This document shows, one piece after another, positions 10,035 through 63,541 of a stretch of 64,000 nt of DNA. The first letter of the stretch is position 1, and each line of letters begins with the position of its first letter. The notes beneath the pieces are model-generated. The model saw only the letters and a program-made list of their open reading frames with translations. It did not search any database and had not been told where the DNA came from. Source of the stretch: an uncultured Oscillospiraceae bacterium (lineage in GTDB: Bacteria; Bacillota; Clostridia; Oscillospirales; Acutalibacteraceae); contig URKX01000001.1 in assembly GCA_900548545.1 (NCBI GenBank), positions 9,985 to 73,984 of the forward strand, read 5' to 3'. Made by a program: the position numbers and the translations under genes.

Positions 10035-11372
10035 TTACCGGCCATTTTGGCGGGCGTCGCGGACCACTTTCCGGTAGGCGGGGATCAGGAAGCAGTCAGC
10101 CAGGATCCAGGCGGCGGGGCTGGCAAAGCAGGCCATGAGGAAACCGAAGCGGGGCACCAGAAACAGGCCGAACGTGCCCCGGGCAACCATTTCAAAGACC
10201 CCGGCAAACACCGCCACCTTGCTGTAGCCCATGCCCTGGATCAGCAGGCGGAATACGTTCACCCCGGCCAGGGGGATGAAAAACGCCGCCTGGATAACGA
10301 TGAATTGATAGGCCTGGTCGATGATGAGGGTTTCGCTGCTGTCCACAAAGAGCAGGGTCAAGGGGCGGCCGAAGAGGGCCAGCACCGCCAGGGCCAGCAG
10401 GGAGTAGACGCTGCCAATGGTCATGCCGGCCCGCAGCCCGGGGAAGATCCGGTCCACCCGGCGGGCGCCGACGTTCTGGCCCCCGTAGGTGGACATGGCG
10501 GCGCCCAGGGCGTCAAAGACGCTGCCGAACAGCTGGTACAGCTTGTTTGCGGCGGTGACAGCCGCCACTACCGCGGACCCCAGCCCGTTGACGGAGGCCT
10601 GCAGCAAGATGCTGCCAATGGCGGTGATGGAAAATTGCAGCCCCATGGGCAGGCCCATGGACAGCAGCCGCCGGGCGTATTCCGGGCGGAAGTGAAGGTC
10701 GTCCCGGGTGACATGGAGAAGGGGGAACTTCTTGCAGATGAAGGCCAGGCAGGCAAGGCCGGAGATCCCCTGGGAGATCACCGTGGCCCAGGCGGCTCCC
10801 GCCACCCCCATGGGGATGACCAGGATCAAAAAGAGGTCCAGGCCGATGTTCAGCAGGGAGGAGAGCACCAAAAACACCACCGGGGTGCGGCTGTCCCCCA
10901 GGGCCCGCAAAAGGCTGGCCAGGATGTTGTACAGCACAACGGTGGGAATGCCCAAAAAGATCACCACAATGTAGTGGTAGGCGTCGTCAATGATGTCGGC
11001 GGGGGTGTCCATCCATTCCAAGATGGGGCGGCACAGGGCCACCGTCAGCAGGGTGACCAGCAGGGTAAAGCCCACCGCCAGCCACAGGATGTTCCCCACA
11101 AAGCGGCGCAGGTCCTTGTAGTCTTTGGCGCCGTAGCTTTGGGACACGGGGATGGAGAACCCGGAGCAGATCCCCAGGCAGAAGCCAAGGATCAAAAAGT
11201 TGATGGAGCCGGTGGAGCCCACGGCGGCCAGGGGCCCTGTGCCCAAAAAGCGGCCCACGATGATGGTGTCCACCATGGAGTAGAATTGCTGAAACAGGTT
11301 GCCGAACATCAGGGGCACGGCAAAGCCTAAAACCAGCTTCATAGGGGAGCCGGCGGTCATGTCTTTGGTCAT
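10035..11372 (-). CDS. MATE family efflux transporter
   Basis: 12-TM MATE-like sequence (MTKDMTAGSPMKLVLGFAVPLMFGNLFQQFYSMVDTIIVGRFLG); AAGGAGGG RBS before ATG 11372. Confidence 0.85.
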   Translation of the reverse strand: MTKDMTAGSPMKLVLGFAVPLMFGNLFQQFYSMVDTIIVGRFLGTGPLAAVGSTGSINFLILGFCLGICSGFSIPVSQSYGAKDYKDLRRFVGNILWLAVGFTLLVTLLTVALCRPILEWMDTPADIIDDAYHYIVVIFLGIPTVVLYNILASLLRALGDSRTPVVFLVLSSLLNIGLDLFLILVIPMGVAGAAWATVISQGISGLACLAFICKKFPLLHVTRDDLHFRPEYARRLLSMGLPMGLQFSITAIGSILLQASVNGLGSAVVAAVTAANKLYQLFGSVFDALGAAMSTYGGQNVGARRVDRIFPGLRAGMTIGSVYSLLALAVLALFGRPLTLLFVDSSETLIIDQAYQFIVIQAAFFIPLAGVNVFRLLIQGMGYSKVAVFAGVFEMVARGTFGLFLVPRFGFLMACFASPAAWILADCFLIPAYRKVVRDARQNGR

Positions 11373-30789: not shown

Positions 30790-31098
30790 AACAAACGAAG
30801 CTCCTTCCACTGCAAAAATAGCGGCCTTTACCGCGTTGCCTAGCAATTCCCTGTTTTGTACAAGTTTTGTGTCACAAGGCATAGCTAATTATATATCAAT
30901 CTCCGAAAGAATACAATGGGAAATCAAAAATACTATGAATTAACCGTTATATGGGAAGCTTTTTTGTTAGAAGTGCCTAAAAGATACCGGGCTGTTCCCA
31001 GGTGGAAAAGGCTGTACCAAGTGGAAAAAAGGGGAAAAGAAACGGGCGCGGGGGATTCCCGCGCCCGGAAGATGGTTCAATGATATGAGAAAAGGTAT

Positions 31099-34000
31099 TT
31101 ACCTGCGCAGCTTGGGCAGCAGGAGGGTCACTGCCAGCCAGAACAGCTGGAACAGGAACAGCACCAGGGAAGAGAGCTGCCCCATGGCGCCGAAGCAGGC
31201 CAGGAAAGCCACCAGTACAAAGCAAAGCACCATGGCTGCGTTCTGGATGGCCACCACCAAGCCGATGGTGCGCTTTTCCTCCACACAGGCGGAGATGACG
31301 CTCATCATGGATTCCATGCGGCCCTTGGTGGCCACCAGGGCGTCGGCCCGGGGGATCTGGGATTTGACCAGCTTGCGGTACTCGTCGCCCAAGCGGCTGT
31401 CCAGCACGCCCACAGAGGCGGCGTCGATGCCAAACAGCCGGTTGACCAGCTGGGGCGTCACGTTGGGGTCGGTGGTGCGCACGATGATGCTGATGCCGCT
31501 GTCCTCCAGCCGCTGCAGCTCGTTTTTCCGGCGGCGGTCGGCGGTGTAGGTCAGAACCAGCAGGGCAGCCACTTCGCTGTCCACCCCAATGTACACCACT
31601 TGCTGGTTGCCGGAGGCGTACTGGGCTTCCTCTTCCCGGGGCGGCACTTGCAGCCTGTGATTGATCAGCAGCGAGCGGTCGCCGATGAGGATGGTTTTGC
31701 CGTCCACCTTGCCCACAATGCCGCCTCCGTCCTCATAGGAGAAGTCTTGCACCTGGGGCAGGGCGTCCTCGTTTTCGCTGATGACCTGGTCGAACACGCC
31801 GGACAGGGGGCCGCCCACCTCGTTCATTAGGGCGGAGGCGGCCATCACGGCGTCCTCGGCAGCGGCACGGCCGCCGAAGGTGCGGATGCCGTTGAGCACC
31901 ACGGTGCCCCGGGGGAACAGGTCCTCAGCGTCCACCATGACGGCGTTGACGTTGCCCAGCTGCTCCACGCCCTCATAGCCCACCACCATGGCGCCGGCGC
32001 GGCGGGCCGTGCGGCACAGGCGGCTGATGGGCAGGTTCACCGACAGCATATTGGATACCGCCACGCTGGCACAGCAAGCGGCTGCCAAGGCGCTGACAGC
32101 AGTGGGTACGCTCTTGGTGATCAGCAGGGAGGCGATGCACAGCACCAGGCTGGCGATCAGGCCGATGGGGGCCATCAGCTGGGAGGCAGACTCCGAGGGG
32201 TCGGGCTTGTAAGAGAGTTCCAAGAACCGCTTTAAGAACCCGGCGCGGCACTGGTAGGCGATCACGGGGGATTCGGAGACGCAGTCCTTGGCCATCTTCA
32301 AAGCGGTGTTGTGGTCCTCAAAGAGGCGCACGCTGTACTTTTCCTCCCGGGAGGTGACAAACCGGAAATTGGAGTGGATACGGCGGATCATGGTCAGCTT
32401 GCCTGCGGCGTTCAGGAACAGCGTGGCAGCCAGGATCACCGCGTACAGGTGAAGTTCCCCGTTGATCAGGTCGTCCTGGAAGAAGGCGGCAGCCACTGCC
32501 TGGACAGCCACCGCCACAGCCGCCACAGCCGCGGCGGAGTCGGAGCTGGCGTTAAAGGAGAGCAGGGCTTTCAAGCCGTTGATGATGGTGCGGTAACAGA
32601 TCCCCACTGCCACAGCCAGGAACACCAGGGTCAGCACCACGTACACTACCGGCAGGGAGCCGGGGTCGGCCACGCTGCCAAACTGGGCTCCAAAAATCAC
32701 GTTTACCAGGGCCAGCAGCACCGTGCACACGCCGGTGATCATCATCCGCAGGGTCAGCTCCCGCATTTCGCCCCGCAGCTCGTGGGAAATGGACTTGGCG
32801 TCCTCGGGGCCGGTGTAGTCGTCGATGGACTCCCCGGTGTCCGCATCGGGGATGGGGGGCTCCTCCGGGGCGGGATTTTCCAGTTTCTTGTTGCGCACCC
32901 GGCGTTTGGGGGCGTTTTTCCGCTCTTGGCGTTCAGCCGCCTGCCGCAGCTCCTCCGATTCAGAGAGCAGGGCGCTTTGCAGCACTTCCGCGTGGATGAT
33001 GTGGGTGGGCACGCTCCGGGGCCGGTACTGGTAAATGCTGGCCACCTGGGGAGGCTCTGCGACCGGCCGGTTGAGCACCACGGTCTTTTCCTCCGCAGGG
33101 GCCTGTGTGGGAGCCGGTGCGGCGGGCGCCTGGGGGATAGGCATGGCCTGGGTGGGGGCTTCTGCCGCAAGGGCGGCCGGGACAGGTGCTTCCGGAACGG
33201 GCGCCTGCTGGGCCATGGGCCCCTCTGCCGGGGCGGTCTCTTCCACAGGGGCTTGGGGGATGGTTTCTTCCGGTGTGCCGGGCGCCCGGGAGGCCAGGTC
33301 CTCAAAGGAAAGCTGCTGCTCCGCCGGCTGGGCATCCGGCGCCGGGGCGGCTTCCCGGGGCTGCCCTTTGGGCTGGTACAGCCGGATGGGCTCCTCCACA
33401 GCGGGCTCTTCCTGGGGCGGGAGTTCCTCCACAGGCTGGGGTGCCTCCGCTGGGGCGGGCGGTTCCACAGGGGCGGGGACCTCCGCCGGGGCCTCTTGGG
33501 GCGGAAGCTGTTCCACGGGTTCCAGGGGGGTGTCGGACCCCAACACCCGACGGATAGCCTCCTCGGAAACGGGGGGCTGCTGGCCCACCCGCTGGAGCTC
33601 CACTGTATCGTTGAGCACGTTCAGCTTGATCTCCATGGTCTGGTGGTCGGAGGATTCCAGCATGGCTTTTTGCAGGCCGGACACCTGCTTGTTGCCCTCC
33701 ACGCCAATGCCGTGCTGGCGGGCGTAGGGGTCGGCTGCAAAGGAGGTCACCGGCATGGGGGCCACCACGCCGAACTCGTCGGCGATCTGTTCCTCGTCCA
33801 CCCCGGCGGTCTGGACCGCTTCCGCCACCCGGCGTCGGCGTTCCTTCTGCAGCCGCTGGAAGTTCTGTTCCACCTCGTCGTCAATGGCCTTTTTGGAGTC
33901 ATCAAACAGGGCTTTATAGGTTTCTTCCTCGCTGGTCAGCTCCCCTGCCGGGTCGTAGCCCTTGCGGTACTCGTCGATGGGCTTCAGCTGGATGCCGTAA

Positions 34001-34431
34001 TACAGGTCGTCCTCGTTTTCGTCAAAGTCAGGCACCCGCTTTTTCCGGCCAAACAGCCCCCGGCGCTTCTTTTTCTTGTCCTTTTTACCGGAAGCCTCTT
34101 TCTCCACTTCCCGGCGGTCCTCCTCCCGCAGGGGGAGTTCCACCGTGCCCGTGGCATAGGCGTTCAGGTCGGCCTGGGCCTCTTGCCTGGGCTTTGCCGG
34201 CTGCTGCCCTTGAGGCTGGGCAGCCTGGGGCTGCTGCTTGGGAGGCTGCGCCTGTTGGGGTTGGGCGGGCTGGCCTGCCGGGCGCTGGGGGGGCCTTGCC
34301 CCGGGCTGGCGGGGCTGCCTTTCCTGCGCAAGGTCTTTCCGGGCGGCCTGCTGGGCGGCTTCCACCTCCCGTTTGGCCCGCTCTTCCGCCAGGATATCCT
34401 CCAGGGTAAATTCCTTGTTGTCCTGTGACAT
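31099..34431 (-). CDS. P1B-type P-type-ATPase homolog with degenerate catalytic motifs (probable pseudo-ATPase) and an approximately 560-aa disordered N-terminal extension
   Basis: the C-terminal 550 aa align to CopA/ZntA-like ATPases (TM helices, CPC position = CCA, DKTGT position = DAEDL, TGDN = TTDPN, GDGxND = AIQNAA); AAAGGAGGA RBS before ATG 34431; 18 nt downstream of rlmB. Confidence 0.8.
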   Translation of the reverse strand: MSQDNKEFTLEDILAEERAKREVEAAQQAARKDLAQERQPRQPGARPPQRPAGQPAQPQQAQPPKQQPQAAQPQGQQPAKPRQEAQADLNAYATGTVELPLREEDRREVEKEASGKKDKKKKRRGLFGRKKRVPDFDENEDDLYYGIQLKPIDEYRKGYDPAGELTSEEETYKALFDDSKKAIDDEVEQNFQRLQKERRRRVAEAVQTAGVDEEQIADEFGVVAPMPVTSFAADPYARQHGIGVEGNKQVSGLQKAMLESSDHQTMEIKLNVLNDTVELQRVGQQPPVSEEAIRRVLGSDTPLEPVEQLPPQEAPAEVPAPVEPPAPAEAPQPVEELPPQEEPAVEEPIRLYQPKGQPREAAPAPDAQPAEQQLSFEDLASRAPGTPEETIPQAPVEETAPAEGPMAQQAPVPEAPVPAALAAEAPTQAMPIPQAPAAPAPTQAPAEEKTVVLNRPVAEPPQVASIYQYRPRSVPTHIIHAEVLQSALLSESEELRQAAERQERKNAPKRRVRNKKLENPAPEEPPIPDADTGESIDDYTGPEDAKSISHELRGEMRELTLRMMITGVCTVLLALVNVIFGAQFGSVADPGSLPVVYVVLTLVFLAVAVGICYRTIINGLKALLSFNASSDSAAAVAAVAVAVQAVAAAFFQDDLINGELHLYAVILAATLFLNAAGKLTMIRRIHSNFRFVTSREEKYSVRLFEDHNTALKMAKDCVSESPVIAYQCRAGFLKRFLELSYKPDPSESASQLMAPIGLIASLVLCIASLLITKSVPTAVSALAAACCASVAVSNMLSVNLPISRLCRTARRAGAMVVGYEGVEQLGNVNAVMVDAEDLFPRGTVVLNGIRTFGGRAAAEDAVMAASALMNEVGGPLSGVFDQVISENEDALPQVQDFSYEDGGGIVGKVDGKTILIGDRSLLINHRLQVPPREEEAQYASGNQQVVYIGVDSEVAALLVLTYTADRRRKNELQRLEDSGISIIVRTTDPNVTPQLVNRLFGIDAASVGVLDSRLGDEYRKLVKSQIPRADALVATKGRMESMMSVISACVEEKRTIGLVVAIQNAAMVLCFVLVAFLACFGAMGQLSSLVLFLFQLFWLAVTLLLPKLRR

Positions 34432-34449: not shown

Positions 34450-35238
34450 TTACGGATTGACCGCTTTCAAGCCGCTGCGCTGGCGGGAAACCTCATAGCA
34501 GAGGATGCCAGCCGCCACCGATGCGTTCAGCGAGTTTATGTTTCCTTTTAATGGCAGGGATACCACAAAGTCGGCCTTTTCCTTGACCAACCGGCCCACG
34601 CCCTTGCCTTCGGAGCCGATGACCAGGGCCACCGGGCCGGTGAAGTCCGTCTGGCACCAGGGGGCGCCGTCCATGTCGGCGGCGTAGACCCACAGGCCCC
34701 GCTGTTTTAGTTCCTCCAGCAGGGAGGCCAGGTTGTTTACACGGGCCACCGGCAGGTGTTCCACCGCTCCGGCGGAGGCTTTCCCCACCGCGTAGGTCAA
34801 GCCTACGCTGCGCCGTTTGGGGACGATCACCCCGTGGGCCCCGGCACATTCCGCCGTGCGGATCACCGCGCCCAGGTTGTGGGGGTCCTCCAGTTCGTCG
34901 CAGATGACAAAGAAGGGGGGCTCGCCCCGCTCCTGTGCCCGCTGGAACAGGTCTTCCACTGTGGCGTATTCCTTCACTGCGGCCACTGCCACCACCCCTT
35001 GGTGGTTGGCCCCGCCGCACAGGTGTTCCAATTTTTTGGGGTCCGCCTCTTTGATGGCGGCCCCGGCCTCTTTGGCTTTGGCGATCAGCGCCTGCAGCCC
35101 GCCGGGGCGTTCGCCCCGCTGGACGTAAAGGCTGTCAATGGCCCGTCCGGCTTTGAGCGCCTCGGTTACCGCGTTGCGTCCGGCGATGATGTCTGTGCCC
35201 CGGGGGGCTTCCCGGCGATTGTTTGGGTGTTTTTCCAT
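34450..35238 (-). CDS. rlmB: 23S rRNA (guanosine-2'-O)-methyltransferase RlmB (SpoU/TrmH family)
   Basis: SpoU methylase motifs (FFVICDELEDPHNLGAVIRTAECAGAHGVIV ... LVIGSEGKGV ... LNASVAAGI); AAAGAGGA RBS. Confidence 0.85.
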   Translation of the reverse strand: MEKHPNNRREAPRGTDIIAGRNAVTEALKAGRAIDSLYVQRGERPGGLQALIAKAKEAGAAIKEADPKKLEHLCGGANHQGVVAVAAVKEYATVEDLFQRAQERGEPPFFVICDELEDPHNLGAVIRTAECAGAHGVIVPKRRSVGLTYAVGKASAGAVEHLPVARVNNLASLLEELKQRGLWVYAADMDGAPWCQTDFTGPVALVIGSEGKGVGRLVKEKADFVVSLPLKGNINSLNASVAAGILCYEVSRQRSGLKAVNP

Positions 35239-35470
35239 GGTGAGTCCTCTTTCTGCGGCCCGGCCCACTGGCGGGGCCCCGGGTATTCTCCCGGCGATAG
35301 ACATACTTTGCTGACATTATAGCACAGTTCCTTGGAAATCTCAAATAAAAATGCGGGGAAAATGGGGCTTTTCCCAGGAGGGGCCGGCCCAGGAGGGGAG
35401 TCCTCTTTTTTCGGGAGGTTTTTCCAAACAATGCAAAAAAATTCTTTTTTGTATGCTTCCGCAAAGGCGT

Positions 35471-35889
35471 TTTTCCACAGGGCCGCCCGGTGTAACCTGT
35501 GTTTCCCACCGGGAATGTGGAAAACTCTGTGGAAACTGTGAAAAACTCTTGTCCCTATGCGGGTTTCAACTTTCCCCCGTTTCCACCAAGGAACTTTTTT
35601 ATGTAAACAAAAGGCTTTATTTTTCTTTTTTGAAACAAAAAACGTCATTTTTCAAGATTGGAAAATGCCCCAATATACAGAAAAAACGGGGAAGTTGTCT
35701 GCTCTATCTTGTGTCAAGTGGAAACGGGAAAAATCTTTTCCCACAAACTGTCCACAGGGATTTAACATACATTTCACCAAGGGAGGTTAGCTGGGCCTTT
35801 TCGGGCTTTCCACAAGAAAAGGCTATGCTTTTCCCCGGTTTTGTGGTATACTAGCGGCAAAACAAGGGGGATTCCGGCTTGTTTCCACA
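35471..35889. promoter_or_regulatory. cluster of DnaA-box-like 9-mers (TTTTCCACA/TGTGGAAAA family) in both orientations; oriC-like or DnaA-box-cluster element
   Basis: strong boxes at 35471-79, 35516-24, 35528-36, 35579-87, 35717-25, 35748-56, 35807-15, 35881-89, plus weaker variants; AT-rich block between them. Confidence 0.6.
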
Positions 35890-35982
35890 AAAAGCCCCTC
35901 CCATTGCAGGGGGTTTTTCAAAAAAACCCGGATGAATATTTATACGCGAAATTTGTCGAATAACCATTTTGGAGGTTTTAAT

Positions 35983-36696
35983 ATGCGGGAAGATATCTGT
36001 TCCATCCCTGTAAACGATGTATTTATGCCCAAAGACGGCTGCCCTTTCTGCCGGATGCGGGATATGCTGGAGGACCGGATGGCTACCTACATCACCGGCG
36101 CGGCCATGATGGAGCCTGACGTGCGGGTGGAGACCAACCGGCTGGGCTTTTGCACCGAGCACTTCAACCAGATCCTGGCCCGGGGCAGCCGGCTTTCGGT
36201 GGCGCTGATCTTAGAAAGCCTGCTGGCCACGGTGAAGGACGAAGTGTTCCCCCAGGGGAAGGCAGCACCCAAGAAGGTTGCGGCGGCGGTGAAGTCCCGG
36301 CAGCAGCACTGTTTTATCTGTGAGAACATTGAAAAAAACACCTCCCACCTGCTGGACAGCACCTTGAAGCTGTGGCAGGCAGACCCGGATTTCCGGGAGC
36401 TGTACAGCCAGCAGCCCTATATCTGCCTGCCCCACTACGGCCAGGTGATGGAAGCGGCCATGAAGATGCCCAAGAAGAATTTCCAGGTGTTCCAGCAGGA
36501 AACGGACCGGCTGGCCAAAAAGTACCTGGAAGAGTTAAACGGCGACGTGACCCACTTCTGCCGGATGTTCGACTACCGCAATGCCGGCGGGGACTGGGGC
36601 AACTCCAAAGATGCCATTGAGCGGGCCATCCAGTATCTCACCGCCCGGGTGCCGGAGGACCGCCAGAAGGCCGATGAAAAGAACCGTGCCTTTTAA
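35983..36696 (+). CDS. hypothetical Cys-rich protein (four CxxC/CxxH-type pairs), probable metal-binding protein of unknown function
   Basis: CPFC, CTEHF, CFIC, CLPHY motifs; GGAGG RBS before ATG 35983. Confidence 0.6.
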   Translation: MREDICSIPVNDVFMPKDGCPFCRMRDMLEDRMATYITGAAMMEPDVRVETNRLGFCTEHFNQILARGSRLSVALILESLLATVKDEVFPQGKAAPKKVAAAVKSRQQHCFICENIEKNTSHLLDSTLKLWQADPDFRELYSQQPYICLPHYGQVMEAAMKMPKKNFQVFQQETDRLAKKYLEELNGDVTHFCRMFDYRNAGGDWGNSKDAIERAIQYLTARVPEDRQKADEKNRAF

Positions 36697-60693: not shown

Positions 60694-60730
60694 GAGTAGT
60701 AAAACGAGTAGTAAAACGCGTTTTTACTAC
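60694..60730. repeat. integrase/excisionase arm-type site candidates: two direct GAGTAGTAAAACG repeats plus an inverted copy CGTTTTTACTAC overlapping the int 3' end
   Basis: direct repeats at 60694-60706 and 60707-60718, inverted copy at 60719-60730; additional ATCTTGATG direct repeats at 60660-68 and 60680-88. Confidence 0.5.
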
Positions 60731-61920
60731 ACCGCGACGCGTCGCATCTCCTCCGCAGCCGTGCAGCCGTCCATATGGGCGTAGTACCCGAGCGTCATCT
60801 TGATGTCCTTGTGGCCCATGATGTATTGCAGCGCCTTCGGGTTCATGCCCGCTTTCGCCATCTCCGTGCAGAACGTGTGGCGCAGCGTGTGCGGTGTCAT
60901 GTCCTCGGGAAGCGGCGCTCCCCCGCCCTTCGCGTACTTGCGCCTCAGCCCCCTGAACACCCGGTCGTAATCGCCGCCGACCCTCGGCAGCCCGTCCCTG
61001 TTGAGGAAGATGAAGCCCGTTCGCCCATCGACGCTCATGGGCTTCGCCTTCGGCCTCGATGCCACGACATGCTCGAACGCGGCCATCACCTCGTCGGTCA
61101 TGTAGATGTAGCGCTTGCCGCTCTCCGTCTTAGGCTCATCGACCCGGTATCCCCCGCCGACTGCGCGGGCGAGCTGGTGGTCCACGAAAATCACCCTGTT
61201 CGTCAGGTCGATGTCCGCCTCGGTCAGCCCGCACATCTCCGATATGCGCAGCCCCGTCCCGAGGAGGATGACCACCTCGTCGATGTACCTGTGGTAGACG
61301 GCATCCGACCGCATGAAACCGAGCAGCGCGTCCACCTGTTCCCGACTCAGCGGCTCCCTCTCCGTCACGTCCCTCTTGATGACGGTCGCGAGCTTGAAAT
61401 CGAACGGGTTCTTGCGTATGCAGTCATCGGCTATCGCCAAGTAGAACGCCGCCTTGAGCGAACGCTTGTGGTTGGAGATGGTGGAGTAGGCGAAGCCCTT
61501 GGACTTCATGCGCTGCGCCCATTCCTTCGCGTCGGACAGCTTCACGCCGCCTATCTCCCGCGAGCCTATCGCATCCTCGAAGAGGAGTCGCTTGAGCTGC
61601 GCCCTCGACCTCTCCGTCCCCTCGCGCACGTCGAGGCGGCATCTCGTGAACTTCGCGTAGAGCTGGCTGACCGTCATCTTCTTGCCGATGGGGTCTATCC
61701 CGTCCTCAAGGTCACGGCGTATCTCGTGCTCCTTCTCGCGCAGCGGCTTGCACGGCCTCTTACCGGCAGGGAGCCTGTCGGTCTCCACCAGCCGCCATGA
61801 GTAGACGAACTTCGGTTTTTTGTCCCTGTCGATGTATTTGAAGACGTAGAGTCCGTTGGTCCTCTGGCTCTCGCCGGTGTTCAGTACCCTATTCCTGTTG
61901 TCCCGTCTTTTCTGTGACAT
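60727..61920 (-). CDS. int: tyrosine-type site-specific recombinase/integrase (Tn916 Int-like)
   Basis: C-terminal catalytic RHTFCT...HxxxxMTLGYY (R-H-R-Y) motifs, N-terminal arm-binding domain; GGAAGGAGCG RBS. Confidence 0.9.
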   Translation of the reverse strand: MSQKRRDNRNRVLNTGESQRTNGLYVFKYIDRDKKPKFVYSWRLVETDRLPAGKRPCKPLREKEHEIRRDLEDGIDPIGKKMTVSQLYAKFTRCRLDVREGTERSRAQLKRLLFEDAIGSREIGGVKLSDAKEWAQRMKSKGFAYSTISNHKRSLKAAFYLAIADDCIRKNPFDFKLATVIKRDVTEREPLSREQVDALLGFMRSDAVYHRYIDEVVILLGTGLRISEMCGLTEADIDLTNRVIFVDHQLARAVGGGYRVDEPKTESGKRYIYMTDEVMAAFEHVVASRPKAKPMSVDGRTGFIFLNRDGLPRVGGDYDRVFRGLRRKYAKGGGAPLPEDMTPHTLRHTFCTEMAKAGMNPKALQYIMGHKDIKMTLGYYAHMDGCTAAEEMRRVAV

Positions 61921-62000
61921 CCATATATCGCTCCTTCCATATGGAAAGAGCCTTGGTATGCTACTTCCATTATAGCATATCCAAGGCTCTTTTTCATCCT

Positions 62001-62204
62001 CTAAATCACGTCCGTCGAGTCGATGAACCGCTCGAACGCCTTGCGTTTGACCTGAACGCGATTGCCGTTCATCACCACCCAGTCAGGCGTCGGCAACTCC
62101 GAGGCAAGGCGGCGCAGCTTGCCCTCGCCTATGCGGAAGTACCGGGCCGCTTCCTCGATGGTGAGCGTGTACTTCTCCCATACGGGTATGTCCTTCGCGC
62201 CCAT
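62001..62204 (-). CDS. xis: excisionase family DNA-binding protein (Xis, Tn916-like)
   Basis: 67 aa, [25 protein letters not shown]; immediately upstream of int; GAGGAGGTGG RBS. Confidence 0.8.
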
Positions 62205-62219
62205 GCGCCCACCTCCTCA

Positions 62220-62429
62220 TCACGGCTCGAACCGCAGCATCGCGGCGAGCAGCTTTCCTTGGAGCTGCGTCTTTCTCAGGGTATCGACCCCGTACTCGAC
62301 GCGCCCGGACTCATCGAGGAAGGCGTGCGTGCAGAGCTGGTCCATGTAACCGTCGAAGTAGGCGAGGACCTTCTGCATGGCAACGGGGTCGCCTGAGACC
62401 GCCGCGACCATCACCTCATAGCTCATCAT
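62220..62429 (-). CDS. small hypothetical protein (Tn916 Orf8 position)
   Basis: 69 aa; GAGGAGGTGA RBS; overlaps the upstream sigma-like gene stop. Confidence 0.55.
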   Translation of the reverse strand: MMSYEVMVAAVSGDPVAMQKVLAYFDGYMDQLCTHAFLDESGRVEYGVDTLRKTQLQGKLLAAMLRFEP

Positions 62430-62850
62430 CGCCAATCACCTCCTCTAAACGCGTCCTCAGCGCGAGGAGCGCCTTCGAGCGCCTGAATTGGACCGTGGAG
62501 CGAGGGCACCCAAGCTCCTCGGCGATGCGCCTGTCCGTCCACTCCGCGAAGTAGTAGAGCAGGACGATGGCTTGGTCGCCTTTGGAGAGGCCATGGATGG
62601 CATCGGCGAGAACGGTGTCCATCACCACGACCTCCCGACCAACCACCTCGAACACGACCTCCTCCGATATGAGGGCATCGGGTGAGGCCAGCCTGTTCAG
62701 CTCGCTCTCGTGCATGTCGGAGAACACGGTCTCCCATCGCGCCTCCCGCGCCTGCTTGCGAATGATGTCCGTCCTCGCGTTGCGAAGCGTCTTCCTGCAA
62801 TAGGCGCAGAACATCTTGACTACCGCCAGTTTCTCTTCTTCTGAAATCAT
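62416..62850 (-). CDS. sigma-70 region-4-containing protein (Tn916 Orf7-like putative sigma factor/regulator)
   Basis: LSKGDQAIVLLYYFAEWTDRRIAEELGCPRSTVQFRRSKAL = sigma70_r4 HTH; AAAGGAGGAA RBS. Confidence 0.7.
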   Translation of the reverse strand: MISEEEKLAVVKMFCAYCRKTLRNARTDIIRKQAREARWETVFSDMHESELNRLASPDALISEEVVFEVVGREVVVMDTVLADAIHGLSKGDQAIVLLYYFAEWTDRRIAEELGCPRSTVQFRRSKALLALRTRLEEVIGDDEL

Positions 62851-63541
62851 CGTGATTCCTCCTTTCCACAAGGAACACGATACGCCGCCGGTCGTTTGCC
62901 GGGGAAAAAGGTTCTAAGAAGGAGAGATGTGTAGAAGACGTGGAGATGCTTTACTTTCAAGCACCGTACTGGACTGAAAAAAATGAGCGATGATTACCGT
63001 AGATTACCTCTGATGGCGTTAGATGACATCAGATGCACACCATCTGCCCTCTTCCACCTTCCACATTGGCAACCCTCCGCCCCGTCTGCGTGTATGGGAT
63101 GTGGGGCACCGACGTGGTGCTCGGATATAATGCGGCGAAAGGGGTGTCGGGACATCCGTCCCCCGATGCGTCCACGAGTAGAAAGGAAGAAGACCATGGC
63201 GCAAGATTTTGGAGACGACGTAGGCGAGATGCTGCTTCGCAGCATCTCAAGATACGGCGAAAAAGCAATCGGCTTAAATAATTAAATGGGTGTGTGAAGG
63301 ATACGTGGAGAGCGATATGTCATATTGCAAGCATTGTAGGATGCTATCTTACTACAAATGTGGTGGAAATATGGAACCGCCGCGTCATGTGCATCCCATC
63401 GCCGAATGGTGTATCCTCGGTATCGAGGTTTATTGCGGAACCGGACAACTTAGCTTTCTCAGCCCTCGTGGCGGGAAATATATAGAAATACCCCGTGGTG
63501 TCCGCAATCGCCACGGGGTATTGTCGTTTGGAGGCACTTAC

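What the first reader, a model, noticed from the sequence alone, without database searches (positions are those of the whole stretch)
35419..35890. Dense cluster of DnaA-box-like 9-mers in a 600-bp intergenic region: candidate oriC or DnaA-box cluster
Between rlmB and a Cys-rich hypothetical gene there is an unusually long non-coding stretch carrying at least 8 close matches to the DnaA box (TTATCCACA consensus; here TTTTCCACA, GTTTCCACA, CTTTCCACA, CTGTCCACA and reverse complements TGTGGAAAA, TGTGGAAAC, AGTGGAAAC) plus about 5 weaker variants, in both orientations and partly in head-to-tail pairs 3 nt apart (35516-35536). No ordinary promoter needs this many copies of one 9-mer. In Firmicutes such clusters occur at oriC (flanking dnaA) and at a handful of origin-proximal DnaA-box clusters that titrate or regulate DnaA. 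The ori-proximal Bacillus genes darA-holB-yaaT-yabB-rsmI lie 15 kb away in this window, consistent with proximity to the origin. dnaA itself is not in the window, so this is either a secondary DnaA-box cluster or part of a bipartite/relocated oriC.
Basis: partly seen in the sequence, partly recalled or inferred. Interest (0 to 1): 0.72.

Follow-up and report, generated by a model that had tools for sequence, protein, structure and literature searches.

The report
Conserved DnaA-box cluster, not the origin
The 744-bp gap between an rRNA methyltransferase gene and a DUF6062 gene holds a real, evolutionarily conserved cluster of binding sites for the replication initiator DnaA, and it looks like a secondary DnaA-binding control region between two diverging operons rather than the chromosome's replication origin.

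Summary
All the named 9-mers are at the stated coordinates. The 744-bp intergenic region has 8 DnaA boxes at one mismatch or fewer, against 0.86 expected (0 of 3000 simulations).

The core is three head-to-tail boxes on the minus strand (35545 to 35516: TTTTTCACA GTTTCCACA gag TTTTCCACA). This triple is kept in 37 of 74 sources, the window plus 73 related Acutalibacteraceae/Oscillospirales loci. Some relatives carry perfect TTATCCACA boxes. The same box-CTC-box pair abuts dnaA genes in at least 14 metagenome contigs, so these are genuine DnaA sites.

The origin reading is poorly supported:
- There is no dnaA in the window or within 10 kb in any of the 73 related loci.
- There is no DnaA-trio run.
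- Strand-corrected GC3 skew has the same sign on both sides of the module in 18 of 21 loci; only 1 looks origin-like.
- In Acutalibacter muris the module shrinks to three boxes in a 167-bp gap.
- The module and its neighbouring genes have moved between lineages.

In the ancestral layout the boxes sit between diverging operons: DUF6062-ogg on one side, and a small membrane protein, rlmB and a ~1100-aa protein on the other. They lie just upstream of a weak promoter.

Best reading: a non-oriC DnaA-box cluster, comparable to the B. subtilis DBCs or datA, acting as an operator and DnaA sink. It is a new member of a known kind, of modest interest.

The parts
35239..35982 (.). Non-coding intergenic region between the diverging rlmB-like gene (34450-35238, minus) and the DUF6062 gene (35983-36696, plus). 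GC is 0.45 against about 0.61 for the window.
   Evidence: Pfam; composition; the 167-aa ORF called here is spurious
35516..35545 (-). Core module: three head-to-tail DnaA boxes. The minus strand reads TTTTTCACA|GTTTCCACA|gag|TTTTCCACA, with spacers of 0 and 3 nt. The boxes point towards the rlmB operon.
   Evidence: 24 of the 62 invariant alignment columns across 16 species lie in 35517-35564. The module is found in 37 of 74 sources. Orthologous modules have perfect TTATCCACA boxes (L037; L183).
35471..35479 (+). Consensus-class DnaA box TTTTCCACA, facing the triple across a variable 36-bp spacer.
   Evidence: conserved in the close relatives
35420..35428 (+). Weak DnaA-box variant TTTTCCAAA
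35570..35587 (+). Two abutting degenerate boxes, CTTTCCCCC and GTTTCCACC, at the edge of the AT-rich stretch.
   Evidence: conserved in the close relatives as GTTTTCACM/GTTTCCACC
35595..35650 (.). AT-rich stretch (about 80% AT) made of an imperfect 28-bp tandem repeat. It contains the conserved block TTATGTAAAC (35599-35608), which reads GTTTACATAA on the strand that reads the boxes.
   Evidence: The same block flanks the box triple in L032, L033, L037, L051 and L213-215.
35705..35718 (.). Deeply conserved block TATCTTGTGTCAAG, function unknown.
   Evidence: Invariant TGTG at 35710-35713 across 16 species
35717..35725 (-). DnaA-box variant (plus strand AGTGGAAAC, read as GTTTCCACT on the minus strand); specific to this lineage.
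35737..35756 (+). Box pair TTTCCCACA (35737-35745) and CTGTCCACA (35748-35756). Relatives have TTGTCCACA at the second position.
35806..35814 (+). DnaA box CTTTCCACA, about 50 nt upstream of the predicted DUF6062 transcription start; specific to this lineage.
35844..35852 (+). Predicted DUF6062-ogg promoter, an extended -10 element TGgTATACT. It overlaps a 2-mismatch box (TATACCACA on the minus strand).
   Evidence: Invariant TG/TATACT columns; present about 140 nt upstream of the ATG in 13 relatives
35881..35889 (+). DnaA box GTTTCCACA at about +22 of the DUF6062 leader. It is conserved as TGTTTYCACAAA, and the leader shows no conserved RNA structure.
35316..35344 (-). Strong sigma-A-type promoter for the rlmB operon: TTGAGA-17-TGcTATAAT.
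   Evidence: Promoter scan 11/12 with TG; invariant columns; the same TGTGCTATAAT lies upstream of rlmB in L214
35356..35375 (-). Terminator-like hairpin just upstream of the rlmB promoter, possibly a remnant of the terminator of the lost small gene.
   Evidence: the link to the lost gene is inferred from the ancestral layout
35952..35960 (+). Spo0A-box-like TTTGTCGAA about 25 nt upstream of the DUF6062 ribosome-binding site.
   Evidence: conserved in 9 relatives; the match to the 0A box rests on my own knowledge

Best explanation
This is a secondary, non-oriC DnaA-box cluster that serves as a conserved DnaA operator in a divergent promoter region.

Proposed mechanism (inferred, not shown): ATP-DnaA binds cooperatively to the three head-to-tail boxes at 35516-35545. 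From there it oligomerises or loops to the accessory boxes at 35471, 35579, 35737/35748, 35806, 35843 and 35881.

In the ancestral layout the triple lies 0-35 bp upstream of a weak promoter (TAAACA-17-TATAAC). That promoter drives a small membrane-protein gene followed by rlmB and a ~1100-aa protein gene. DUF6062-ogg is transcribed the other way.

In the window's lineage the small gene is gone, which explains the unusually long gap. Extra boxes have accumulated around the DUF6062 promoter at about -50, over the -10 and at +22. The boxes still point at the rlmB operon.

The expected effect is that expression of the flanking operons follows the level of active DnaA, that is, replication status. 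As a by-product the cluster sequesters DnaA, as the B. subtilis DBCs and E. coli datA do.

What is shown: the sequence, its statistical excess, its conservation, the architecture, and the lack of origin signatures. What is inferred: DnaA binding, the direction of regulation, and any titration effect.
For: Identity of the sites. Statistical excess. Orthologous modules carry perfect TTATCCACA TTATCCACA gag TTTTCCACC (L037). The same box-CTC-box pair abuts dnaA genes in at least 14 metagenomic loci.

Conservation. The triple and 20 bp beside it hold 24 of the 62 invariant columns of a 16-species alignment. It is found in 37 of 74 sources.

Operator architecture. In 10 of 10 loci that have both features, the boxes point at a small gene 90-180 bp downstream. 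Three more loci, found independently through that protein, show ogg<-DUF6062<-[boxes]->small gene->rlmB->large protein, with a TAAACA-17-TATAAC promoter right after the boxes. Conserved promoters flank the cluster in the window. The leader box at +22 is conserved as DNA without any RNA structure. The same triple also sits in promoter regions of gyrB/parE-like genes elsewhere, as expected for a regulon element.

Precedent. B. subtilis has six intergenic DBCs outside oriC that regulate neighbouring genes and restrain initiation (PMC3245932). The essential datA boxes all share one orientation (PMC5742627).
Against: No binding or expression data exist. The direction of regulation is unknown. In the window the triple lies about 170 bp from the rlmB -35 and about 330 bp from the DUF6062 -10, further than in relatives. 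In L037 and L051 the module is no longer upstream of DUF6062 and yet is well kept, so a purely gene-specific operator role is not enough and a DnaA-sink role may matter more. An AT-rich 56-bp tandem flanked by boxes resembles an unwinding element. The whole-genome position of dnaA and of the skew minimum could not be obtained.
Confidence: 0.7

Rival explanations
1. It is the chromosomal replication origin, or one half of a bipartite or relocated oriC, in this clade. DnaA bound to the boxes would melt the AT-rich 35595-35650 stretch.
For: There are 8-13 boxes in both orientations around an ~80% AT, 56-bp tandem repeat. Spacing between conserved blocks is kept among close relatives. Tandem boxes with a spacer of 3 bp or less are the arrangement found at unwinding systems (PMC8287927). 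One Hi-C study of gut strains, which included A. muris, notes that ori does not always coincide with dnaA (PMC10197239).
Against: No dnaA in the 64-kb window or within 10 kb in 73 related loci. No run of 3 or more DnaA-trio units within 16 bp of a box. All-site GC skew is positive on both sides. Strand-corrected GC3 skew has the same sign on both sides in 18 of 21 loci and is origin-like in only 1; the signal is real, because two collinear genomes at 88% identity show opposite signs. Flanking genes do not diverge in L019/L194, L068 or L037. The highly expressed rpsO-pnp genes point towards the module in both the window and A. muris. The A. muris orthologue is 3 boxes in 167 bp that also holds a promoter and ribosome-binding site. 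The module is tandemly duplicated in L051. No parS site in the window or in L194.
Confidence: 0.05
2. It is purely a datA-like initiation-timing element. The cluster would exist to titrate or inactivate DnaA after initiation, and any effect on neighbouring promoters would be incidental.
For: The module persists when its neighbours change or invert (L032, L037, L051, A. muris). All three core boxes share one orientation, as the essential datA boxes do, unlike DARS, where box I is inverted (PMC5742627). B. subtilis DBCs restrain initiation even when moved (PMC3245932).
Against: The boxes keep a fixed orientation and distance to a promoter and small gene in 13 loci, which points to transcriptional coupling. 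In A. muris only 3 boxes remain, a small sink. No IHF-type site can be recognised, and Firmicutes lack IHF (my own knowledge).
Confidence: 0.15
3. The repeats are bound by some factor other than DnaA (for example Spo0A or another regulator), or they are promoter-related sequence with no DnaA role.
For: Most copies here are the TTTTCCACA/GTTTCCACA variant rather than TTATCCACA. A Spo0A-box-like TTTGTCGAA lies nearby. Further conserved blocks of unknown function (TTATGTAAAC, TTGTGTCAAG, an AT palindrome at 35431-35450) show that other factors act in this region.
Against: Orthologous modules contain perfect TTATCCACA boxes. The identical box-CTC-box arrangement lies directly beside dnaA in at least 14 contigs from diverse taxa. 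The G at the position that separates TGTGGAA (DnaA) from TGTCGAA (Spo0A) is invariant.
Confidence: 0.07

Closest known systems
[quoted passage not shown]
   Same: Both are intergenic clusters of DnaA boxes in a Firmicute, located in promoter regions. In B. subtilis, DnaA regulates downstream genes (it activates sda and represses ywlC and yydA) and the clusters jointly restrain initiation. The neighbouring genes differ between species while the clusters persist (PMC3245932).
   Different: The taxon differs (Oscillospirales) and so do the flanking genes (rlmB operon, DUF6062-ogg, a small uncharacterised membrane protein). The core here is a strictly conserved head-to-tail triple with spacers of 0 and 3 bp. 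DnaA binding and origin proximity have not been shown.
Escherichia coli datA
   Same: It is a non-coding DnaA-box cluster whose essential boxes share one orientation. It assembles ATP-DnaA oligomers and lowers initiation potential (PMC5742627).
   Different: datA needs an IHF site between its boxes and promotes ATP hydrolysis. No such site can be recognised here, and no hydrolysis function can be inferred. datA is not a promoter operator.
oriC basal unwinding system (tandem DnaA boxes + DnaA-trios + AT-rich element) of B. subtilis and Clostridioides difficile
   Same: Tandem boxes with a spacer of 3 bp or less, and an AT-rich stretch within 50 bp. The same box-CTC-box pair occurs at genuine dnaA-linked origins.
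   Different: No DnaA-trio run, no linkage to dnaA or dnaN, no skew switch, and the full architecture is not kept in orthologous loci.
E. coli DARS1/DARS2 core
   Same: Three closely spaced DnaA boxes with fixed spacing.
   Different: In DARS, box I is inverted relative to boxes II and III, giving head-to-head contacts (PMC5742627). Here all three boxes are head-to-tail.

Membership tests
Chromosomal origin oriC (Firmicute type) | Cluster of DnaA boxes (at least 3 boxes, mean spacing under 100 bp) | tested here: met
   8 boxes at <=1 mismatch in about 470 bp; criterion as quoted in PMC7561715
Chromosomal origin oriC (Firmicute type) | DnaA-trio run (three or more 3'-[G/A]A[T/A]-5' units) within about 16 bp of a box, followed by an AT-rich unwinding element | tested here: not met
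   Only two 3-unit runs occur in the region (at 35622 and 35351), and neither adjoins a box. An AT-rich 56-bp stretch does exist.
Chromosomal origin oriC (Firmicute type) | Linkage to dnaA/dnaN | tested here: not met
The same query readily finds dnaA in 14 metagenome loci.
Chromosomal origin oriC (Firmicute type) | Switch of replication-associated strand skew, or of gene orientation, at the site | tested here: not met
   Same sign on both sides in 18 of 21 loci, origin-like in 1. For the window alone the test is weak: L +0.006 and R +0.038, with both confidence intervals spanning 0.
Chromosomal origin oriC (Firmicute type) | Supports initiation (marker-frequency peak, autonomous replication) | not testable with these tools
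   Needs sequencing coverage of growing cells or a plasmid assay
Non-oriC DnaA-box cluster (DBC / datA-like) | Intergenic cluster of consensus-class DnaA boxes away from dnaA | tested here: met
Non-oriC DnaA-box cluster (DBC / datA-like) | Conserved among related genomes beyond the neutral background | tested here: met
Non-oriC DnaA-box cluster (DBC / datA-like) | Stable DnaA occupancy in vivo, and an effect on initiation timing | not testable with these tools
   Needs ChIP, deletion and flow cytometry
Non-oriC DnaA-box cluster (DBC / datA-like) | Origin-proximal position (typical of the family, not obligatory) | tested here: inconclusive
   The A. muris orthologue lies at 63 kb in CP021422.1, but the record's start could not be verified. 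The same gene is the 2053rd of 4271 in CP065321.
DnaA-regulated promoter (DnaA as transcription factor) | Boxes positioned at or next to a promoter in a fixed orientation | tested here: met
   The triple lies 0-35 bp upstream of TAAACA-17-TATAAC in L032, L033, L037, L051 and L213-215. In the window, boxes lie at about -50, over the -10 and at +22 of the DUF6062 promoter.
DnaA-regulated promoter (DnaA as transcription factor) | Transcription responds to DnaA activity | not testable with these tools
   Needs reporter fusions or RNA-seq under DnaA perturbation
DARS-type reactivating sequence | Three-box core with box I inverted relative to boxes II and III | tested here: not met
   All three core boxes share one orientation; definition from PMC5742627

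The most novel reading that the evidence does not exclude
The head-to-tail box triple may be the hub of an undescribed clostridial circuit that senses replication status. In this reading DnaA occupancy would drive an uncharacterised ~87-aa membrane-anchored protein (MIKGVNRQIIEV...; no family in Pfam or NCBIfam). That protein would be a functional analogue of the DnaA-activated checkpoint protein Sda, which Clostridia lack. The same occupancy would drive DUF6062-Ogg, and the cluster would also time initiation as datA does. The window's lineage would be a derived state that lost the small gene but expanded the box cluster. A still more radical reading, a dormant or secondary origin, is not strictly excluded, but the skew data in 18 of 21 loci argue against it.
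Probability: 0.15. Interest if true: 0.6.

Novelty: new member of a known kind. Interest (0 to 1): 0.35.

Why it matters
DnaA-box clusters outside oriC are well studied only in B. subtilis, E. coli and Streptomyces. This is a family-wide conserved example in gut Oscillospirales, a group with almost no replication genetics.

It gives a concrete, testable DnaA operator: one 30-bp triple with defined neighbours. It also links DnaA to an rRNA methyltransferase operon, an 8-oxoguanine glycosylase operon, and, in relatives, an unknown small membrane protein.

It carries a practical warning as well. Origin predictors based on box density could mistake this locus for oriC in metagenome-assembled genomes, and public gene callers already place a spurious 167-aa ORF across it.

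Tried and rejected
RNA features. Rfam finds nothing at gathering thresholds over the whole window, and nothing meaningful at E<=10 over the region. There are no tRNAs. The DUF6062 leader has no conserved structure.

Coding potential. The 167-aa ORF is rejected. The small membrane protein found next to the module in relatives is absent from the window and from the close relatives (six-frame HMM search).

parS sites. None in the window or in L194.

Locating dnaA and ori.
- The contig longer than 1 Mb that carries the window's DUF6062 protein was not returned.
- The Hi-C paper gives no per-strain ori coordinates in its text or supplement.
- The 2016 genome paper is not held.
- Two proteins near the window's left end are not on record. 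A protein near its right end turned out to be a promiscuous Tn916-type integrase.

GC skew. Simple all-site GC skew is confounded by gene orientation. I replaced it with a strand-corrected GC3 regression.

Other conserved blocks. I tried to read TTATGTAAAC, GTTGACATAA and the block upstream of the DUF6062 start as sigma-F/G/E/K or sigma-H promoters, or as a BirA operator. By eye none fit consistently. Only the weak sigma-A reading TAAACA-17-TATAAC held across loci.

DUF6062 function. There is no relative of solved structure by sequence. I did not attempt structure prediction.

Full report
WHAT IS THERE. The window is a high-GC (about 61%) Firmicute of the Acutalibacteraceae. Its closest public locus, at 98% protein identity, is an "uncultured Neglecta sp." chicken-gut MAG. 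The finding lies in a 744-bp non-coding gap (35239-35982). On one side is a minus-strand SpoU/RlmB-type methyltransferase gene (34450-35238). On the other is a plus-strand DUF6062 gene (35983-36696) followed by an Ogg-type glycosylase gene (Pfam). Public gene callers place a 167-aa ORF across the gap. Its GC3 is 0.43 against about 0.8 for real genes, and no frame is conserved in relatives, so the region is non-coding. Rfam and tRNA scans find nothing.

Against TTWTCCACA with at most one mismatch, the gap holds 8 sites. Order-1 Markov simulations of the same region give 0.86 +/- 0.93, and 0 of 3000 reach 8. At two mismatches or fewer the gap holds 20 sites against 7.75, again 0 of 3000. All other intergenic DNA of the window carries 1.07 sites per kb against 10.8 per kb here.

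ANATOMY. Reading left to right on the plus strand:
- a strong minus-strand promoter for rlmB (TTGAGA-17-TGcTATAAT, 35344 to 35316);
- a terminator-like hairpin (35356-35375);
- an AT palindrome (35431-35450);
- a plus-strand box (35471);
- after a variable 36-bp spacer, three head-to-tail minus-strand boxes with spacers of 3 and 0 nt (35516-35545);
- two degenerate boxes (35570-35587);
- an ~80% AT stretch made of an imperfect 28-bp tandem repeat (35595-35650), which contains a conserved TTATGTAAAC;
- a conserved TTGTGTCAAG block;
- further boxes at 35717, 35737, 35748 and 35806;
- a conserved extended -10 element (TGgTATACT, 35844-35852), taken as the DUF6062 promoter and overlapped by a weak box;
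- a box at about +22 (35881);
- a weak hairpin with a T-run (35895-35912);
- a Spo0A-box-like TTTGTCGAA (35952-35960).

THESE ARE GENUINE DnaA BOXES, AND THE CORE IS DEEPLY CONSERVED. I fetched 73 related loci through DUF6062. The gap between rlmB and DUF6062 is long and box-rich in all syntenic relatives, at 4-13 boxes per kb against 0.3-1.3 per kb in the flanks. In a 16-species alignment, 24 of the 62 invariant columns fall in 35517-35564, which is the box triple plus about 20 bp. Most of the remaining invariant columns mark the two promoters. A loose pattern for the triple finds it in 37 of 74 sources. Some relatives carry textbook boxes: L037 reads TTATCCACA TTATCCACA gag TTTTCCACC. A metagenome scan for the box-CTC-box pair returned 120 contigs. 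In at least 14 of them the pair lies directly beside a dnaA gene, either upstream of it or in the gap after it. This settles the identity of the motif and rules out an unrelated regulator.

IS IT THE ORIGIN? Several independent lines say no.
1. No dnaA lies in the 64-kb window or within 10 kb of the module in any of the 73 loci. The same query easily detects dnaA elsewhere.
2. No run of three or more DnaA-trio units adjoins a box (definitions from PMC8287927 and PMC7561715).
3. Plain GC skew is positive on both sides, but it is confounded by gene orientation. I therefore separated a coding-strand term from a replication term using third-codon positions. For the window alone the result is uninformative: left +0.006 and right +0.038, with both confidence intervals spanning zero.
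4. Across 21 loci with enough genes on both sides, the replication term has the same sign left and right of the module in 18. It is origin-like in 1 and terminus-like in 2.
5. That signal is real. A. muris KB18 and a MAG that is collinear with it at 88% identity show opposite signs, gene by gene. For uvrA the values are -0.075 and +0.184. The locus therefore sits inside a replichore and has been inverted relative to replication in some lineages.
6. The architecture is not kept. In A. muris the orthologous element is three strong boxes in a 167-bp gap between co-directional pgsA and DUF6062, and that gap also holds a promoter and ribosome-binding site.
7. In L051 the module is tandemly duplicated. 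In L037 and L051 it lies downstream of DUF6062.
8. The module-DUF6062-ogg unit has moved. In the window rpsO-pnp-mnmA...PGM lie 25-35 kb to the left of the module. In A. muris they flank it directly. In both genomes the highly expressed rpsO-pnp genes point towards the module, the opposite of what is expected beside an origin.
9. No parS site occurs in the window or in the A. muris locus.

What remains in favour of an origin is the AT-rich tandem flanked by boxes. There is also a published remark that in the OMM12 strains, which include A. muris, ori does not always coincide with dnaA (PMC10197239). I put the origin reading at about 5%.

WHAT IT LOOKS LIKE INSTEAD. In ten loci the triple is followed, 90-180 bp downstream and always in the direction the boxes point, by a small gene. 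It encodes an ~87-aa protein with a C-terminal membrane anchor (MIKGVNRQIIEV..YFERA..PEY..LEREARK), and it has no Pfam or NCBIfam family.

I retrieved three more loci independently through homologues of that protein. All three show the same layout: ogg <- DUF6062 <- [GTTGACATAA ... 3-4 boxes ... ATTATGTAAAC-N17-TATAAC] -> small gene -> rlmB -> ~1100-aa protein. The block after the boxes reads as a sigma-A promoter with a weak -35 (TAAACA-17-TATAAC). That puts the boxes where a class-I activator or a repressor would bind.

The window's lineage lacks the small gene, which explains the unusually long gap. It retains the triple pointing at the rlmB operon, which has its own strong promoter. The same TGTGCTATAAT promoter lies upstream of rlmB in L214. 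The window's lineage has also gained accessory boxes around the DUF6062 promoter. The first 38 nt of the DUF6062 leader, including the box-like TGTTTYCACAAA, are conserved although the leader has no conserved RNA structure, which points to a DNA-level site.

The same triple, next to a TTGACATAAC block, also sits in the promoter regions of gyrB/parE-like genes in other high-GC contigs. Still denser clusters of 10-14 boxes lie beside rhomboid, birA and mgtE genes, with co-directional flanking genes. These bacteria therefore seem to carry several DnaA-box clusters, as B. subtilis does.

MECHANISM (inferred). ATP-DnaA binds the head-to-tail triple cooperatively and extends or loops to the accessory boxes. 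Occupancy tracks the pool of active DnaA, so it couples transcription of the two diverging operons to replication status and at the same time sequesters DnaA. This matches the six B. subtilis DBCs, which are intergenic, regulate neighbours such as sda, ywlC and yydA, and jointly restrain initiation (PMC3245932). It also matches datA in that its essential boxes share one orientation. It does not match the DARS core, where box I is inverted (PMC5742627). Whether DnaA activates or represses here cannot be told from sequence. The boxes over the -10 and at +22 of the DUF6062 promoter suggest repression there. The position upstream of a weak -35 suggests activation of the small-gene promoter in relatives.

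OPEN POINTS. I could not establish the distance to the real origin. The A. muris orthologue lies at about 63 kb in CP021422.1. I could not verify that this record starts at dnaA. In the second deposit of the same strain (CP065321) the gene is the 2053rd of 4271. The functions of the TTATGTAAAC/GTTTACATAA pair, the TTGTGTCAAG block and the AT palindrome are unexplained.

VERDICT. It is of modest interest, chiefly as a defined entry point into DnaA regulation in gut Oscillospirales and as a caution for origin prediction in MAGs.

Noticed in passing
L037:10991-11287, L033:9353-9616(-), L032:4644-4916, L213:4001-4264, L214:4001-4267, L215:4001-4264 and others: An uncharacterised ~87-aa protein family with a C-terminal membrane anchor (MIKGVNRQIIEV..YFERA..PEY..LEREARK). 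It has no Pfam or NCBIfam family, and about 40 homologues are all annotated as hypothetical. Its gene lies 90-180 bp downstream of a head-to-tail DnaA-box triple, in the direction the boxes point, in 13 loci. It is absent from the window's lineage.
   Followed up: partly
window 60727-62871 and rightwards: A Tn916-family integrative conjugative element begins here. It has an integrase (60727-61920, minus) followed by Xis/HTH/sigma-like genes. The identical integrase sits next to type-IV-secretion genes on many unrelated contigs.
   Followed up: partly
L101:4299-4860, L159:6357-6691, L087:3068-3376: Very dense DnaA-box clusters, 10-14 boxes at <=1 mismatch in 0.3-0.6 kb, lie beside rhomboid, birA and mgtE genes in other high-GC gut contigs. 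No dnaA lies on the stretches fetched around the match (3-9 kb to either side), and the flanking genes are co-directional.
   Followed up: partly
L124:4438-4480, L183:5675-5717, L187:7681-7723, L116:1762-1803: The same three-box module, abutting a TTGACATAAC block, sits in the short promoter region of gyrB/parE-like topoisomerase genes. This suggests a wider DnaA regulon in these bacteria.
   Followed up: partly
window 35952-35960: A Spo0A-box-like TTTGTCGAA lies about 25 nt upstream of the DUF6062 ribosome-binding site and is conserved in 9 relatives. It is preceded by a conserved ATGAATATTTATAC block. This hints at sporulation-linked control of DUF6062-ogg.
   Followed up: no
L033:8500-9350(-), L213:4300-4600: Between the small gene and rlmB there are two or three tandem copies of a ~110-nt unit. 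Each starts at a TGnTATAAT promoter and contains ..CCTCACGGC..hairpin..GCCTGAGAGAACATTG.. followed by a terminator-like hairpin. There is no Rfam match. It could be an undescribed leader or riboswitch-like element for the rlmB operon. It is not present in the window.
   Followed up: partly
window 31099-34431 (-): The 1110-aa protein encoded downstream of rlmB has no Pfam domain. It shows only weak C-terminal similarity to P-type ATPases in NCBIfam (E about 5e-15, far below the family cut-offs). It is conserved next to rlmB across the clade.
   Followed up: no
L194 (A. muris KB18, CP021422.1 52997-73704) versus L019: Two genomes that are collinear at about 88% identity over 20 kb have opposite third-codon-position GC skew gene by gene; uvrA is -0.075 against +0.184. 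This implies that the region is replicated in opposite directions in the two genomes.
   Followed up: partly
L051:10849-10891 and 11181-11223: The DnaA-box module together with its flanking GTTGACATAA and ATTATGTAAAG...CGTATAAT blocks is tandemly duplicated 330 bp apart. A T-box leader and an aminoacyl-tRNA synthetase gene follow.
   Followed up: no
window 35351-35854 (+): Public assemblies annotate a 167-aa hypothetical protein across the intergenic region. Its composition (GC3 0.43) and its lack of frame conservation show that it is an artefact.
   Followed up: yes
window 31001-31028: Two more one-mismatch boxes (TTTTCCACC and TTTTCCACT, minus strand), 19 bp apart start to start, lie in the 216-bp AT-rich gap between the EF-G paralogue and the 1110-aa protein gene of the same operon.
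   Followed up: no
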